DNA of 63,985 bases, filler included, from Vicugna vicugna (Eukaryota): NCBI GenBank assembly GCA_013265495.1. It is 81 parts of 76 records of this genome, joined end to end, with 100 filler letters (N's around TTAATTAATTAA, not from the genome) between each part and the next. Parts side by side here need not be neighbours in the genome. Positions count along the whole stretch, not along the records: positions 11,591 to 12,527 come from PNXW01003269.1; 80 more parts are not named here. One strand, 5' to 3'. Within the stretch, counting starts at the first letter, position 1. Every line of letters begins with the position of its first letter. The position numbers were made by a program, and so were the translations under genes. Below are positions 11,591 to 63,169 of the stretch, piece after piece. The notes below the pieces were generated by a model. It was given only the letters and a program-made list of their open reading frames with translations, made no database searches and was not told the origin of the DNA.

Positions 11591-11707
11591 AGAAACCAGC
11601 CATGCCAGCCACGCCAGCCAAGCAAGAGCCTGGGGTGCGGCCCGCAGTCCCTGGAGGGGTGTAAGCTCCACCGCTCACAGGGGACAGAGCCCTGCTGGCT
11701 GGTGGCC
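11591..11707 (-). pseudogene. MIA3/TANGO1-like paralog, degenerate proline-rich-domain exon (SPVSGG)
   Basis: Encodes ..LSPVSGGAYTPP.., compare recalled MIA3 PSPVSGGECSPP; the expected acceptor reads ttttcttcAT rather than AG, and SQQGS is in a different frame from SPVSGG. Confidence 0.55.
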
Positions 11708-11887
11708 CATGAAGAAAACAGCATCTTGTCACCCAGCTGTGAACCTGTTCCCCGCAGTGAGTGTGTGGTGTGGTGTCCAGGAAATCTGACAACTACCCCC
11801 GGGGAAAAGCAGCCCACTGGGCGGCTCCTGCTGCAGAAATGGAGCTGCTGCACTTCACAGAGAGCTGCCGCACAGTGCGCTCCTTAC

Positions 11888-11982
11888 CTCTCAGGGGAGG
11901 GTGCAGCCTGTACGGTCCTCCTGGGGTGGGCTCCTGCCTCATGTATTCCTCTGCCTGCCTCCATTTGCAGATTGCATCCAAT
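11888..11982 (-). CDS. MIA3/TANGO1-like paralog exon (95 nt): (R)LDAICKWRQAEEYMRQEPTPGGPYRLHPPLR(G)
   Basis: Acceptor tctttatctttaag and donor gtaagg; phase 2 in, phase 1 out, compatible with the preceding exon; PTPGGP..HPPLRG resembles recalled MIA3 PMPGKP..NPPRRG. Confidence 0.75.
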
Positions 11983-12099
11983 CTTAAAGATAAAGAATGG
12001 CTTCAATACGAATTACACCACCAATTCTTCTACTAGGCACAAAACAACCAGTCCTTAAAAATCTCAAAACACCCGTAAAAATGTGTCAAAATTCTGTAC

Positions 12100-12230
12100 C
12101 TCTGTTTCAGGTGGGCAACTTCCCTTCGCTGGTCCGAGTTGTCCCTTCGCAGGTCCGAGTTGTCCCTTCGCAGGTCCGAGTTATCCCTTCGCAGGTCAGA
12201 GTTGTCCCTCTCCAGCTCCTGAGCCCTGAG
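12100..12230 (-). CDS. MIA3/TANGO1-like paralog exon (131 nt) with 21-bp heptad repeats: LRAQELERDNSD(LRRDNSD)3QRREVAHLKQ(R)
   Basis: Acceptor gtttttctcccacag and donor gtacag; 131 nt = 68 + 3x21; flanks resemble recalled MIA3 LKARAAER..EKREAANLRHK. Confidence 0.75.
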
Positions 12231-12305
12231 CTGTGGGAGAAAAACACATCCACGTTCAGTTGTGGTCAACTGTGCACAAAGGGAAGGAAGGAAACAAATT
12301 CTTAC

Positions 12306-12341
12306 CGAGCTGTCTTGGGCCTTCTTCTCGGCAAGAGCAAC
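12306..12341 (-). CDS. MIA3/TANGO1-like paralog 36-nt exon: VALAEKKAQDSS
   Basis: Acceptor gactttttcag and donor gtaaga, phase 0/0; compare recalled MIA3 IATHEKKAHENW and cTAGE5 IISHEKKAHDNW. Confidence 0.8.
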
Positions 12342-12452
12342 CTGAAAAAGTCAACACATCAAGAAACACCTCATGGTGAGGGGAACGTCTTACCCTTCAG
12401 TGTCCATAGTTCTCTGTCTACTGATTTCATCAGGGACACGTACTTTCTTCAC

Positions 12453-12527
12453 CTGCTCTTGGAAATCATCTTCCTCACGTTTTTTCAGAGATCCCGATGC
12501 AGCATGGTGGTCTTGCATTTTCTTTTT
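12453..12527 (-). CDS. MIA3/TANGO1-like paralog exon (5' truncated by contig end): KKKMQDHHAASGSLKKREEDDFQEQ
   Basis: Open, ends at phase-0 donor cag|gtgaag; end resembles recalled MIA3 LQKTERSFKNQ. Confidence 0.6.
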
Positions 12528-18281: not shown

Positions 18282-19513
18282 TGACCTTTGGGAGGCAGCC
18301 TCGGTCACTGGGATTTCCTGCAAAAAACCCTAGCATTCCCTGGCAAAGATTAATGGGGAAAACCCTCAGGGGAGACGAGCACAGGCATTTCCGTACAACC
18401 CACGCGCTGCCGACCGTTGGTGGAACCTCCCCACGCTCAGTATACCGGAATCATTGTCATTGAGTGGGGGAGCTCGAGAGACAAATCCACGCAGCTCTCT
18501 TCATTCACAGGTGTTCCTTGTAAGGGGGAAGTCCGGGAAATACCTTCCCTGACCTTGGGGAGGCAGCATCTGACACTGGGATAACCTGCAAACCCCCCAA
18601 GCATTCCCTGGCACAGAGACATTAGGAAAACCCTCAGGGGAGACGAGCTTAAGCATTCCGTTAGAACCCAGGCGCTGCCGACGGTTGGTAAAACCTCCCC
18701 ACGCTCATGATTCCGCAACAATTTTCATTGAGTGGGGGAGCTCGAGAGACACCTCCACGCAGCTCTCTTCAGTCACAGGTGTTCCCTGTTCGGGGAAGTC
18801 CGAGAAATAACTTCCCTGACATTGGGGAGGCAGCCTCTGACACTGGGATATCCTGAAAACACCCCTNNNNNNNNNNNNNNNNNNNNNNNNNNNNNNNNNN
18901 NNNNNNNNNNNNNNNNNNNNNNNNNNNNNNNNNNNNNNNNNNNNNNNNNNNNNNNNNNNNNNNNNNNNNNNNNNNNNNNNNNNNNNNNNNNNNNNNNNNN
19001 NNNNNNNNNNNNNNNNNNNNNNNNNNNNNNNNNNNNNNNNNNNNNNNNNNNNNNNNNNNNNNNNNNNNNNNNNNNNNNNNNNNNNNNNNNNNNNNNNNNN
19101 NNNNNNNNNNNNNNNNNNNNNNNNNNNNNNNNNNNNNNNNNNNNNNNNNNNNNNNNNNNNNNNNNNNNNNNNNNNNNNNNNNNNNNNNNNNNNNNNNNNN
19201 NNNNNNNNNNNNNNNNNNNNNNNNNNNNNNNNNNNNGGAACCATTGTCAGTGCGTGGGGGAGCTCGAGAGACAACTCCACGCAGCTCTCTTCAGTCACAG
19301 GTGTTCCCTGTTCGGGGAAGTCCGAGAAATACCTTCCCAGACCTTGGGGAGGCAGCCTCTGTCACTGGGATAACCTGCAAACCTCCCTAGAATTCTCTGG
19401 CACAGAGACATTAGGAAAACCCACAGGGGAAACAAGCTTAGGCTGTCCGTTAGAACCAACGCGCTGCAGAACGTTGGTGGAACCTCCACACGCTCAGGAT
19501 TCCGGAATCATTG
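18282..19513 (+). repeat. Satellite A
   Basis: 267-bp monomers. Confidence 0.95.
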
Positions 19514-24880: not shown

Positions 24881-26658
24881 NNNNNNNNNNNNNNNNNNNN
24901 NNNNNNNNNNNNNNNNNNNNNNNNTTAATTAATTAANNNNNNNNNNNNNNNNNNNNNNNNNNNNNNNNNNNNNNNNNNNNGAAATCAGAGGCGTGCATTT
25001 ATATTAGTAAATATTGTTTCATAAGAGCATATCGTGACGTAACCCAAAAGCCGATTTGGAAGAAATGGGGTCCTAGTCCTTTATATAGATTTGCAAGTCT
25101 TCCAACAGTATGAATAAATGCCATATTCTACCCTACGTAGAGAAGAAATGTAAGAAGCCTATAACAAAGACAAGTAGCTCTGCCAAAGTGTACTAAGGGC
25201 AAAAGAGGCAGACAGTAAAGTGCACATTGGGGTTGGTTTCATTTCTTGGAANNNNNNNNNNNNNNNNNNNNNNNNNNNNNNNNNNNNNNNNNNNNNNNNN
25301 NNNNNNNNNNNNNNNNNNNNNNNNNNNNNNNNNNNNNNNNNNNNNNNNNNNNNNNNNNNNNNNNNNNNNNNNNNNNNNNNNNNNNNNNNNNNNNNNNNNN
25401 NNNNNNNNNNNNNNNNNNNNNNNNNNNNNNNNNNNNNNNNNNNNNNNNNNNNNNNNNNNNNNNNNNNNNNNNNNNNNNNNNNNNNNNNNNNNNNNNNNNN
25501 NNNNNNNNNNNNNNNNNNNNNNNNNNNNNNNNNNNNNNNNNNNNNNNNNNNNNNNNNNNNNNNNNNNNNNNNNNNNNNNNNNNNNNNNNNNNNNNNNNNN
25601 NNNNNNNNNNNNNNNNNNNNNNNNNNNNNNNNNNNNNNNNNNNNNNNNNNNNNNNNNNNNNNNNNNNNNNNNNNNNNNNNNNNNNNNNNNNNNNNNNNNN
25701 NNNNNNNNNNNNNNNNNNNNNNNNNNNNNNNNNNNNNNNNNNNNNNNNNNNNNNNNNNNNNNNNNNNNNNNNNNNNNNNNNNNNNNNNNNNNNNNNNNNN
25801 NNNNNNNTGTTGGATCCTAGGTAACCGGGCAGAGTTCTGTAGGTGCATCAGTTTGATGGGGGGGCTGCCTCCCTCTGTGGAGCTTGGCTTAAGTGTTTGG
25901 TCCGGGAAGCTGTGTAAGTTCGAGATACTGCTGCTTCCCAATGGCCTGTGTTCACGGGTCAGTTTCCAGAACCCTTAAGAGCAGACAGTGGAAAAAATAC
26001 CTGTCATCAGCTCACTGGTGTTTCTCCGAGGTACTTTCAGAATTGCCCAATCCTTTAGAATTTGACTTTATAGGAGACACGAAGTGAATCTGGCAGAAAA
26101 GTTATCTGCACGGGTTGAGGAGAGATGCGATCTCATTTATGAGATTTGTTGTGCTACTATGAATAATACTGACATGGAGACCTGTAGAGAATACCAATCT
26201 TGGAAGACATTCATGGACATATTGTGCCTCGTTGATACTTTCAGCAACATGTTGAATATGAATGTGCACTTGAGGAAGTTATTTAATTCTCTGCTCCAAG
26301 TACGGGTCCAAGATTTCTTCCATCCAAAACATAAGAGAAGGTAGAAATGATAGAAGCTCTCATGTTCTTCAATGATGTCTTGAAATTCCAAACGTTCCAC
26401 GGGGCATTTACAAACCNNNNNNNNNNNNNNNNNNNNNNNNNNNNNNNNNNNNNNNNNNNNNNNNNNNNNNNNNNNNNNNNNNNNNNNNNTTTTCCCAGGG
26501 CCTTGGTCTCAATCACTTGCTTTTCCCTCCCCTTCACTCAGTTATACATTTCAGAGAANNNNNNNNNNNNNNNNNNNNNNNNNNNNNNNNNNNNNNNNNN
26601 NNTTAATTAATTAANNNNNNNNNNNNNNNNNNNNNNNNNNNNNNNNNNNNNNNNNNNN

Positions 26659-42357: not shown

Positions 42358-43113
42358 AGGGGAGACGAGCTTAGGTATTCATTTAGAACCCACGTGCTGC
42401 CGACCGGTTGGAACCTCCCCACGCTCAGGATTCCGGAACCATTGTCAGCGCGTGGGGGAGCTCGAGAGACAACTCCACGCAGCTCTCTTCAGTCAAACGT
42501 GTTCTCTGTTCGATGAAGTACGAGAAATACCTTAACTGATCTTGGGGAGGCAGCCTCTGACACTGGGATATCCTGCAATCACCCCTAGCATTCCCTGGCA
42601 CAGAGGCATTAGTAAAATCCTCAGGGGAGACGAGCTTAGGCTTTCCGTTTGAACTCACGCGCTGCCGACCGTTGGTGGAACCTCCCCACGCTCAGGATTC
42701 CGGAAACACTGTCAGTGCGTGGGGGAGCTCGAGAAACAACTCCACCCATCTCTCTTCAGACACTGGTGTTCCCTGTTAGGGGAAGCCCGAGAAATACCTT
42801 CCGTGACCTTGGCGAGGCAGTCTCTGACACTGGGAAATCCTGCAATCACCCCTAGCATTCCCTGGCACAGAGGCATTAGTAAAATCCTCAGGGGAGACGA
42901 GCTTAGGCTTTCCGTTTGAACTCACGCGCTGCCGACCGTTGGTGGAACCTCCCCCGCTCAGGATTCCGGAACCATTGTCAGTGCGTGGGGGAGCTCGAGA
43001 GACAACTCCACGCAGCTCTCTTCAGTCACACGTGTTCTCTGTTCGATGAAGTACGAGAATTACCTTAACTGATCTTGGGGAGGCAGCCTCTGACACTGGG
43101 AAATCCTGCAATC
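42358..43113 (+). repeat. Satellite A
   Basis: CTCGAG at 42461, 42728 and 42994 (267/266 spacing). Confidence 0.97.
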
Positions 43114-45935: not shown

Positions 45936-46443
45936 GGCTGCCTCCCCAAGGAAAGGGAAGGTATTTCCCGGACTTCCACGAACAGGGAACTGTTGTGAAT
46001 GAATAGAGATGCGTGGAGTTGTCTCTCGAGCTCCCCCACGCACTGACAATGGTTCCGGAATCCTTAGCGTGGGGAGGTTCAACCAACTGTCGGCAGCGCG
46101 TGGGTTTTAACGGAATACCTAAGCTCGTCTCCCCTGAGGGTTTTCCTAATGTCTCTGTGCCAGGGAACACTAGTTTTGATTGCATGATATCCCAGTGACC
46201 GAGGCTGCCTCCCCAAGTTCAGGGAAGGTATATCCCAGACTTCCACGAACACGAGAAAACCTGTAAGAGAGCTGCTTGGAGTTGTCTCTCGAGCTCCTCC
46301 ACGCAATGACAATGGTTCCGGAATCCTGCGCGTGTGGAGGTTCCACCAACTGTCGGCAGCGCTTTTGTTCTAACGGAATGCGAAAGCTCGTCTTCCCCGA
46401 GGGTTTTCCTAATGTGTCTGTTCCAGGGAATGCTAGGGGTGAT
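45936..46443 (-). repeat. Satellite A
   Basis: Monomers of family A. Confidence 0.95.
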
Positions 46444-49741: not shown

Positions 49742-50643
49742 TCTCCACATGCTCAGTTCTGAGAGATATGTGTGTGTGTTAAAGCCAAAATTCACCTATC
49801 TTGAAGGGAACACAATTTTTCTTTTCAGTTGCCAACTCCACTCCATACAAATATATGGGGAGGTACAAGCTCCAACTCGGTTTTACAGTGAAAACGGCAG
49901 GCACTTCAAACCGGCACTAGGAAACAGACTGAGAAACCAGAGTAAGGGTTTCTCCTGCAACCCGATCCCCTTGTGCTGGATGAACGAACGTCTCTCCACA
50001 TGCTCAGTTCTGAGAGATAAGTGTGTGTGAAAGCCGTCCTTCACCTAGCTTGAAGGGAACACAAAGTTTCTTTTCAGTTGCCAACTCCACTCCATACATA
50101 TATATGGGGAGGTACAAGCTCCAAATCGGTTTTACAGTGAAATCGGCAAGCACTTCAAACAGGCACTAGGAAACAAACTGAGAAACCAGAGTAATAGTTT
50201 CTCCTGCAACCCGTTCCCTTTGTGCTGAATGAACGAACATCTCTCCACATGCTCAGTTCTGAGAGGTATGTGTGTGTGAAAGCCGTCCTTCATCTAGCTT
50301 GAAGGGAACACAAAGTTTCTTTCAGTTGCCAACTCTACTCCATACATATATATGGGGAGGTTCAAGCTCCAACTCGGTTTTACAATGAAAACCATAGGCC
50401 CTTCAAACCGGCACTAGGAAACAGACTGAGAAACTAGAGACAGTGTTTCTCCTGCAAACTCGTTCTATTTTTGATGGATGAACGAACTTCTCTCCACATG
50501 CTCAGTTCTGAGAGTTAAGTGTGTGTGAAAGCCGTCCTTCACCTAGCTTGAAGGGAACACAAAGTTTCCTTTCAGTTGCAAACTCCAATCCGTACAATTA
50601 TATGGGGAGGTACAATCTCCAACACGGTTTTACCGTGAAAACG
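49742..50643 (+). repeat. Satellite D (~249-bp monomer, 3.6 copies)
   Basis: tctccacatgctcagttctgagag at 49742, 49993, 50242 and 50491. Confidence 0.95.
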
Positions 50644-62539: not shown

Positions 62540-63169
62540 CCCGAACAGGGAACTCCTGTGACTGAAGAGAGCTGCGTGGAGTTGTCTCTCGAGCTCCCCC
62601 ACGCACTGAAAATGGTTCCGGAATCCTGAGCGTGGGGAGGTTCCACCAACGGTCGGCAGCGCGTGGGTTCTAACGGAATGCCGAAGCTCGTCTCCCCTGA
62701 GGGTTTTCCTAATGTCTCTGTGAAAGGGAGTTCTAGGGGTGATTGCAGGATATCCCAGTGACCGAGACTGCCTCTCCAAGTTCAGGGAAGGTTTTTCTCG
62801 GACTTCCCCGAACATTAAACTCCTGTTACTGAAGAGATCTGCGTGGAGATGTCTCTCGAGCTCCCCCACATACTGACAACCATTCTGGAATCCTGAGCGT
62901 GGGGAGGTTCCTCCAACGTTCGGCAGCGCGTGGCTACTAACGGAATGCCTAATCTCGTCTCCCCTGGGGTTTTTCCTAATGTCTCTGTGCCAGGGAATGC
63001 TAGGGGTGACTGCAGGATATCCCAGTGACCGAGGCTGCCTCCCCAAGTTCAGGGAAGGTATTTGTCGGACTTCCCCGAACAGGGAAATCCTGTGACGAAA
63101 GAGAGCTTCGTGGAGGTGTTTCTAGAGATCCCCCACGCACTGACAACTGTTCCGGAATCCTGAGCGTGG
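62540..63169 (-). repeat. Satellite A
   Basis: Anchor at 62588, 62855 and 63122 (267/267 spacing). Confidence 0.97.

What the first reader, a model, noticed from the sequence alone, without database searches (positions are those of the whole stretch)
11591..12527. Fast-evolving, intron-containing MIA3/TANGO1-like paralog hidden in an unplaced contig
Seen: four minus-strand exons (12527-12453, 12341-12306, 12230-12100, 11982-11888) with GT/AG sites, short introns (111, 75, 117 nt) and compatible phases. They splice into one stop-free frame: ..LKKREEDDFQEQ|VALAEKKAQDSS|LRAQELERDNSD(LRRDNSD)3QRREVAHLKQR|LDAICK..EPTPGGPYRLHPPLRG. Recalled knowledge: this order and size match the MIA3 (TANGO1) second coiled coil to proline-rich junction (..SFKNQ|IATHEKKAHENW|LKARAAER..NLRHK|LLEL..PMPGKPNTQNPPRRG|..SPVSGG). 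Inference: identity is far too low for the orthologue, yet splice sites and frame are kept. That suggests a genomic (not retroposed) duplicate of an ER-exit-site cargo receptor under relaxed or positive selection, possibly multicopy, which would explain why it is unplaced. The ORF track misses it because it is spliced.
Basis: partly seen in the sequence, partly recalled or inferred. Interest (0 to 1): 0.8.

Follow-up and report, generated by a model that had tools for sequence, protein, structure and literature searches.

The report
Broken copy of TANGO1-derived NPIP-like gene
This is a probably broken copy of a gene that camels and alpacas carry in many copies, descended from the secretion gene TANGO1 and apparently the counterpart of the fast-evolving human NPIP genes, whose origin and job have been unclear.

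Summary
The exons are real and MIA3/TANGO1-derived, but the gene model needs correcting. The first exon runs to 12394, not 12453. This 937-bp contig lacks two internal exons (53 codons), leaving a 52-nt intron and a frameshift, so this copy is probably a pseudogene. Exons 2-4 are 87/87 identical to an alpaca RefSeq protein of a camelid family found on many scaffolds; contigs from two RNA-type runs show introns 2 and 3 removed in family members.

The duplicate is not camelid-specific. Relatives in horse, carnivores, cattle, rabbit, treeshrew, lemur, xenarthrans and dugong form one clade (100/100) inside mammalian MIA3, about 7-9 times faster than MIA3; most share two internal deletions. A camelid-only origin is rejected (AU p=4e-8).

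The clade appears to be the NPIP/morpheus lineage: a lemur member scores 66.8 bits on Pfam NPIP, and by eye human NPIPA1 has the clade's residue at 10 of 18 diagnostic coiled-coil columns and MIA3's at none. Synteny was not testable, and no simian NPIP was in the tree. The papers I read note the MIA3 likeness in one sentence only. Best guess for intact copies: a cargo-less modulator of TANGO1-cTAGE5 complexes; positive selection is not shown.

The parts
11591..12527 (-). Whole 937-bp contig: an internal fragment (coiled coil 2 to start of the proline-rich region) of one copy of the camelid-amplified MIA3-derived family
   Evidence: spacers; identity to alpaca P0001/P0002
12394..12527 (-). Exon A, cut at its 5' end by the contig edge; 44 codons + 2 nt, ends in phase 2 at a GTAAG donor
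   Evidence: 41/44 identical to P0001; tblastn to 12393; X1 contig continues from 12393 into the next family exon (table 7)
12445..12452 (-).
   Evidence: sequence; no joint listed in 4 runs; 0 of 63 proteins have this spacing
12381..12383 (-). Deletion junction with a 3-nt shared CCC; two exons (53 codons) and flanking intron lost, leaving a 52-nt intron
   Evidence: loose ends of up to 255 listed letters: before 12381 in X1, X2, X15 and behind 12383 in X1, X2, X15 (8 letters in X7); 53-aa gap; intron length
12306..12341 (-). 36-nt exon (VALAEKK...), phase 0/0, homologous to the HEKKAH exon region of MIA3 coiled coil 2
12231..12305 (-). 75-nt GT-AG intron, removed in a family member
   Evidence: joint 12230>12306 in RNA run X7 (26 letters on the short side)
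12100..12230 (-). 131-nt exon (LRAQELER...) with an in-frame 21-nt (one heptad) tandem repeat at 12121-12209, variable in copy number across the family
   Evidence: 63-nt-shorter form in X15
11983..12099 (-). 117-nt GT-AG intron, removed in a family member
   Evidence: joint 11982>12100 in run X1, whose RNA status is a guess (28 letters on the short side)
11888..11982 (-). 95-nt exon: end of coiled coil 2 and start of the proline-rich region; ends in phase 1 at GTAAG
   Evidence: X7 loose end at 11888 reads as the family's downstream ASGPGG exon (my reading table 7)
11640..11708 (-). Vestigial remnant of the MIA3 SQNGS..SPVSGG exon: no AG at the expected acceptor, the two motif halves in different frames, skipped by family proteins
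   Evidence: 6 of 2000 shuffles

Best explanation
The contig is a deletion-damaged, probably non-functional copy of a camelid-amplified gene. That gene descends from a genomic duplicate of MIA3 made in the ancestor of placental mammals, and this duplicate is most likely the lineage called NPIP (morpheus) in primates. SHOWN: homology, exon structure, deletion and frameshift, one fast placental clade inside MIA3, shared internal deletions, many camelid copies. INFERRED: orthology to NPIP (about 0.85); pseudogene status of this copy (about 0.75); spread by interspersed segmental duplication, as for the primate LCR16a core. INFERRED MECHANISM for intact copies (about 0.4): an ER membrane protein with TANGO1-Short topology. 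It keeps the membrane helices, the first part of coiled coil 1 (including the stretch matching the tether/self-association site) and coiled coil 2 (the cTAGE5-binding part). It lacks the luminal cargo domain, about 165 residues of coiled coil 1 and linker, about 70 residues of the proline-rich region and a recognisable Sec16-binding region. It would join TANGO1/cTAGE5 assemblies as a cargo-less modulator or decoy, probably in the male germ line.
For: Exons 2-4 are 87/87 and exon A 41/44 identical to alpaca XP_072807761.1. All 23 hits and 25 of 27 are camelid; the other two are meerkat MIA3. Named relatives in horse, bear, mustelids, otter, clouded leopard, zebu, rabbit and tamandua, armadillo, treeshrew, mouse lemur, dugong. 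The membrane-to-CC2 distance is 163-166 residues shorter than in MIA3 in camelid, horse, bear, ferret, otter and lemur proteins. The CC2-end to GPPP distance is about 65 against about 140. Trees: 99.9/100 with 52 rows under JTT+G4 and 100/100 with 27 rows under LG+C20; the second puts two xenarthrans and one unnamed row apart from Boreoeutheria (95/96), with Laurasiatheria at 94/95. AU p=4e-8 against camelid copies grouping with carnivore MIA3. NPIP link: PF06409 hits 18 of 30 family proteins at E<=0.05, 8 above the cut-off; lemur P0280 66.8 bits with two stretches, the best in CC2; dugong members are named 'putative NPIP family member B2' by their source; by-eye comparison of human NPIPA1 with diagnostic columns: 10 family, 0 MIA3, 8 neither in CC2, plus a matching LLFWLL leader. 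TANGO1 domain functions. Ancestral NPIP is testis-restricted, with a dog orthologue.
Against: No simian NPIP sequence could be placed in a tree (one search returned lemur and dugong only), and synteny could not be tested. PF06409 also passes its cut-off on MIA3-type proteins through the membrane segment (P0097 32, P0141 34.6, P0150 37.3, P0174 33 bits) and hits a MIA3 CC2 fragment weakly (16.8 bits). It does not hit the subfamily nearest the window (P0001, P0002, P0020, P0058). At the 3 diagnostic membrane-segment columns I could compare, NPIPA1 has the family residue at 0, MIA3's at 1. All family branches are long, so attraction cannot be excluded. Xenarthran members have smaller CC1 deletions (about 57-131). 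The tether-equivalent stretch is only 12-18 of 37-41 identical to MIA3 (9 of 25 in rabbit), and the camelid leader has lost hydrophobicity. No binding or localisation evidence exists here. Overexpressed human NPIP was reported in nucleus and cytoplasm, not at ER exit sites. The RNA joints come from other copies and have short sides.
Confidence: 0.7

Rival explanations
1. This copy is functional: the cryptic donor at 12453 restores the frame and gives a protein lacking 73 residues of coiled coil 2.
For: The frame is open with that donor. Exons 2-4 carry no disabling change and match an annotated alpaca protein 87/87. Exon loss with a kept frame is typical of primate NPIP, including loss of exon 5 in NPIPB.
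Against: Weak donor (GTGAAG), no joint in 4 runs, 0 of 63 proteins with that spacing. A strong donor at 12394 remains and leads to a stop either by frameshift or by intron retention. The four runs show no listed contig with this deletion, so they cannot test the allele directly.
Confidence: 0.15
2. The camelid family is a placental MIA3 duplicate, but NPIP is a separate MIA3 derivative; the resemblance is shared ancestry plus fast evolution.
For: The NPIP profile matches true MIA3 as well. Rodent MIA3-like copies of another origin exist (guinea pig P0094). The residue comparison was by eye with two gaps placed by me.
Against: The lemur member scores far above any MIA3 tested (66.8 vs at most 37.3 bits). 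The profile aligns across the family's deletion. NPIPA1 never has the MIA3 state at 18 CC2 columns. A dog orthologue shows NPIP predates primates.
Confidence: 0.12
3. The whole camelid expansion is a neutral passenger: copies multiply because they sit in duplication-prone, satellite-rich DNA, and the proteins do little or have left the secretory pathway.
For: 12 nonsynonymous to 6 synonymous listed variants. Several predictions are chimeras with ankyrin, KH, actin or collagen pieces. This copy is broken. Dog, Old World and New World monkey NPIP were indistinguishable from neutral evolution.
Against: Open frames with the membrane helices and both coiled-coil parts persist in all four placental superorders. 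Repeat changes in exon 3 are whole heptads. Spliced forms exist. The variant sample is small and mixes paralogues.
Confidence: 0.3
4. The deletion is an assembly artefact of a collapsed repeat family.
For: Tiny unplaced contig in a multicopy family; no listed contig in four runs bridges the junction.
Against: The two sides share only 3 nt, the signature of microhomology repair and too short for a k-mer assembler to join (inference loose ends).
Confidence: 0.1

Closest known systems
MIA3 / TANGO1-Short (785 aa ER-exit-site scaffold)
   Same: Membrane helices, first part of coiled coil 1 and coiled coil 2 are homologous and in order (48% and 28% identity in two blocks); a remnant of its SPVSGG exon lies in the contig.
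   Different: About 165 residues of CC1/linker and about 70 of the proline-rich region are absent; the last 120 residues (Sec16/Sec23 site) give only low-complexity scores; different leader; 7-9 times faster; multicopy.
NPIP / morpheus family (LCR16a core duplicon, Pfam PF06409)
   Same: Leader, membrane segment and CC2 motifs by eye; Pfam hits in the clade; interspersed amplification, exon turnover, variable repeat tails and fusion models.
   Different: Camelid copies keep more of CC1 and CC2 than human NPIPA1, lie on many scaffolds rather than mainly one chromosome, and the window's subfamily no longer matches PF06409. Positive selection is not shown here.
RefSeq camelid models named 'TANGO1 homolog', 'MIA2-like', 'uncharacterized' (e.g. 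XP_072807761.1, XP_072808363.1, XP_064334159.1)
   Same: Same subfamily; 87/87 identity over exons 2-4 with the first.
   Different: They retain the two exons that this copy lacks; they are automatic predictions, and my searches found no paper on them.
MIA2 / cTAGE5 and the primate CTAGE retrocopies (the latter recalled, not from a call)
   Same: Same overall membrane-coiled coil-proline-rich plan.
   Different: The family nests inside mammalian MIA3 (100/100) and has introns. Only one distant, unnamed cTAGE5-like outgroup was available.

Membership tests
MIA3/TANGO1 orthologue | Luminal SH3-like cargo domain (long form) or TANGO1-Short N-terminus | tested here: not met
   Family proteins reach the membrane segment within about 30-60 residues of a different leader; no SH3 in Pfam scans
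MIA3/TANGO1 orthologue | Membrane helices followed by full coiled coil 1 | tested here: not met
   Helices present (11-22 of 37-38 identical) but 163-166 residues missing before CC2
MIA3/TANGO1 orthologue | Coiled coil 2 (cTAGE5 binding) | tested here: inconclusive
   Homologous in intact family members (about 30-43% identity); 53 residues deleted in this copy; binding not tested
MIA3/TANGO1 orthologue | Proline-rich domain with Sec16-interacting region and PPP motifs | tested here: not met
   Local scores 29-74 against 597 for mink MIA3; PPP count 0-10, varying by copy; region defined
MIA3-derived paralogue (descent) | Significant collinear similarity and nesting inside MIA3 | tested here: met
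MIA3-derived paralogue (descent) | Shared intron positions with MIA3 | not testable with these tools
The vestigial exon and the deletion limits are consistent with shared exons
NPIP/morpheus | Pfam PF06409 above 27.5 bits | tested here: inconclusive
   8 of 30 family proteins and lemur P0280 at 66.8 pass; the four closest to the window do not; some MIA3-type proteins also pass
NPIP/morpheus | Derived residues shared with human NPIP | tested here: met
   By eye only: 10 family, 0 MIA3, 8 neither at 18 CC2 columns; 0, 1, 2 at 3 membrane-segment columns
NPIP/morpheus | Phylogenetic grouping with simian NPIP | not testable with these tools
   No simian NPIP protein was returned
NPIP/morpheus | Synteny with the ancestral locus (PDXDC1, RRN3, MPV17L, ACSM region) | not testable with these tools
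   No genome held; contig is 937 bp. The dugong name is a lead of unknown basis
NPIP/morpheus | Interspersed multicopy duplication | tested here: met
   Models on 13 alpaca, 13 dromedary and 7 Bactrian scaffolds of distinct length (tally; dromedary may mix two assemblies); 3-62 contigs per run in four identity classes
NPIP/morpheus | Testis-biased ancestral expression | tested here: inconclusive
   One spliced joint in a run labelled reproductive system; contigs cannot give levels
NPIP/morpheus | Positive selection (African ape members) | tested here: inconclusive
   12 N to 6 S among 18 displayed variants; no coding sequences for dN/dS
MIA2/cTAGE5 | Closer to MIA2 than to MIA3 | tested here: not met
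   Nests in mammalian MIA3; the window peptide alone does not discriminate (scores 72-80); no mammalian MIA2 was in the set
Retrocopy | No introns | tested here: not met
   GT-AG introns present and removed in transcripts of family members

The most novel reading that the evidence does not exclude
NPIP/morpheus is not a primate novelty but a truncated TANGO1 duplicate present in all placental superorders. It has seeded interspersed duplications independently in camelids as in apes and marmosets, so the core-duplicon behaviour is older than primates, and its protein acts on TANGO1-cTAGE5 complexes at ER exit sites.
Probability: 0.4. Interest if true: 0.88.

Novelty: new variant of a known kind. 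Interest (0 to 1): 0.7.

Why it matters
NPIP is among the fastest-evolving human gene families and its duplications underlie recurrent chromosome 16 disorders, yet a 2019 review lists 'no homolog' and a 2025 paper states that it lacks deep homology. Descent from MIA3 supplies a deep alignment, a domain map and direct tests (cTAGE5, TANGO1, NRZ tether, Sec16 binding). A separate camelid expansion offers a non-primate test of the core-duplicon idea. The fragment itself is ordinary, a likely pseudogene of an already predicted family, and the MIA3 likeness was mentioned once in a 2017 preprint and is latent in Pfam annotations, which lowers the novelty.

Tried and rejected
No genome is held for this window, so copy number and synteny were not measured. 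No second family fragment lies in the window. A 22-nt motif scan of metagenome contigs gave 1 locus, L001, a chance 23-nt match with no protein similarity. The last protein search, with a lemur-first alignment, returned 6 proteins and no simian NPIP. The ESM Atlas gave MIA2/TGO1-like clusters for P0109, one with PF06409 on 77% of members, and only generic coiled-coil clusters for P0120. A Pfam scan of CC2-only fragments did not cleanly separate family from MIA3. Depth differences between exons and introns were not used, because contig depth cannot rank parts of a gene; run shares under 0.2 were not used as habitat evidence. Two papers holding 'npip' and 'tango1' were false hits inside an author name. 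Earlier scan findings: none. Rfam: 0 matches. The leader profile scores long-form MIA3 signal peptides only weakly, so its origin from MIA3 exon 1 is a guess. In one search the treeshrew row P0099 lacks CC2 and was misaligned there; it and tamandua P0187 were left out of the consensus. No complex or structure prediction was run, as no mammalian cTAGE5 partner was in hand.

Full report
Observation. The window is 81 small contigs joined by spacers, rich in 7-bp and 267-bp satellites. The finding fills one 937-bp contig. I laid 4 of the 24 listed runs on the contig (all are assembled contigs, not reads). Run X7 (RNA) shows the 75-nt intron removed and run X1 (RNA by guess) the 117-nt intron, both at the predicted limits, with only 26-28 letters on the short side and from copies that differ from this one.

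The corrected model. A search with the open frame 12036-12350 gave 23 hits, all camelid. Exons 2-4 are 87/87 identical to alpaca XP_072807761.1 and the first exon 41/44, which points to a South American camelid. In these proteins the first exon continues to 12394 and is followed by 53 residues that the contig lacks; isoforms that break inside this stretch indicate two exons. Other copies carry extra DNA at 12381-12383, with loose ends on both sides in X1, X2 and X15, and an X1 contig runs from 12393 into the missing exon (my reading). The junction shares 3 nt. What is left is a 52-nt intron between a phase-2 donor and a phase-0 acceptor: splicing gives a frameshift and stop, and retention gives an immediate stop. 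Only the weak donor at 12453 would keep the frame; 0 of 63 stored proteins have that spacing. I put pseudogene at about 0.75. The SPVSGG stretch is a remnant of a MIA3 exon (6 of 2000 shuffles) that family proteins skip.

The family. Alpaca P0020 aligns to meerkat TANGO1-Short in two blocks (E 1e-35, 1e-25). Camelid models lie on 13, 13 and 7 scaffolds of distinct length in alpaca, dromedary and Bactrian camel (dromedary may mix assemblies). A search of 1.84 billion representatives found 253 proteins, 150 listed. I looked up names for 20 of these: relatives occur in horse, bear, mustelids, otter, clouded leopard, zebu, rabbit, treeshrew, mouse lemur, tamandua, armadillo and dugong. Camelid, horse, bear, ferret, otter and lemur proteins lack the same 163-166 residues between the membrane segment and CC2; rabbit and zebu lack 168-174, tamandua P0087 57 and armadillo 131. 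Most also lack about 70 residues after CC2. They form one clade inside mammalian MIA3 in both trees; the second tree follows the placental superorders with moderate support. Forcing four camelid copies with carnivore MIA3 costs 98 log units (AU p=4e-8; the test shares any long-branch pull). Camelids have an expanded subclade (100/100) and a separate slower copy, P0078. Across the feliform-caniform split the family shows 0.91-1.21 changes per site against 0.128 for MIA3. The 18 displayed exon variants are 12 nonsynonymous and 6 synonymous, which does not show positive selection.

The link to NPIP. A Pfam NPIP mark on one alpaca hit prompted the test. PF06409 hits 18 of 30 family proteins, 8 above the cut-off, and lemur P0280 at 66.8 bits. 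It also hits MIA3-type proteins at up to 37.3 bits, almost always only over the membrane segment, so it proves NPIP-MIA3 homology but not membership of this clade. It misses the four camelid proteins nearest the window. For membership I read human NPIP sequences in Table S5 of PMC12790995 and compared NPIPA1 by eye with columns where the family differs from MIA3. In CC2 it has the family residue at 10 of 18, the MIA3 residue at 0 and neither at 8; in the membrane segment 0, 1 and 2 of 3. Its leader (LLFWLL..GF) matches the family's, EGIK is shared with the lemur genes, and its RAQ.L motif corresponds to the third exon of this contig. Dugong members are named NPIPB2-like by their source. No simian NPIP could be put in the tree and synteny was untestable, so this stands at about 0.85.

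Mechanism. Human TANGO1 self-associates and binds the NRZ tether through residues 1255-1295, binds cTAGE5 through CC2, and binds Sec16 and Sec23 through 1788-1847. Mapped onto the 785-residue short form by a length offset (my assumption), intact family proteins keep the helices, the tether-equivalent stretch at about 30-45% identity and CC2, but not the luminal domain or a recognisable Sec16 site. The simplest reading is a cargo-less subunit that enters TANGO1-cTAGE5 assemblies and weakens or retunes them, probably in testis, where monkey NPIP is expressed. This is inference (about 0.4). Neutral amplification or a new role away from exit sites remain open, and reported NPIP localisation is nuclear and cytoplasmic.

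What is in print. Nine searches were run. 'Alpaca + MIA3' gave 0 papers; 'NPIP + MIA3' gave 11, of which I opened 3 and judged 8 from the listing. The 2017 preprint 10.1101/116087 states in one sentence 16-27% similarity of morpheus to MIA3 (passages; supplements of preprints are closed and could say more). PMC6920530 lists 'no homolog' (passages). PMC7419210 describes two dog copies and five primate expansions and has 0 mentions of MIA3 in text or held supplements (passages and part 3 of supplement 1; its dog alignment is a figure I could not see). PMC12790995 and its preprint have 0 mentions and say NPIP lacks deep homology (passages and Table S5 rows). PMC11034787, PMC12596725, PMC5851698, PMC5461033, PMC11883524 and PMC11274388 were seen as passages only. 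Most subscription journals are not in the library.

Verdict. The fragment is a probable pseudogene of a family that databases already predict under TANGO1-like names. Its value is the lead it exposes: a pan-placental, truncated TANGO1 duplicate that is probably NPIP and has expanded separately in camelids. Interest 0.7; new variant of a known kind.

Noticed in passing
window:63271-63831 (+): 187-codon open frame with a retroviral Gag p10 match (PF02337, E 5e-8): a fragment of an endogenous retrovirus.
   Followed up: partly
window:13633-14453, 18282-18865, 42358-43113, 45936-46430, 62540-63169: Arrays of a 263-268-bp GC-rich satellite on many contigs, plus 7-bp TATAGAA-type arrays and one 249-bp repeat at 49742-50643.
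   Followed up: no
P0001, P0018, P0023, P0062/P0063: Camelid family models fused to ankyrin-repeat, KH-type, actin, fibronectin-III and JAKMIP pieces, like the fusion transcripts reported around primate NPIP copies; they may be prediction artefacts.
   Followed up: no
P0002, P0017, P0027, P0073: Alpaca and bear members have long tandem protein repeats in the tail (up to 2472 aa), paralleling the variable last-exon repeat of human NPIPB.
   Followed up: no
P0078 / XP_072798196.1: A slower alpaca copy outside the expanded subclade, with the membrane-segment exon apparently repeated several times; candidate for the ancestral locus.
   Followed up: partly
P0094 cluster, guinea pig: Several divergent MIA3-like copies with the TANGO1-Short N-terminus, outside the fast clade: a second, separate MIA3 duplication.
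   Followed up: partly
   Followed up: no
window:61587-61847 (+) and 26066-26341 (+): Open frames of 87 and 92 codons that look coding but match no Pfam family.
   Followed up: partly
P0090 cluster, zebu: Its scaffold length (43.4 Mb) fits the cattle chromosome that I recall as homologous to human 16p; recalled, not tested.
   Followed up: no
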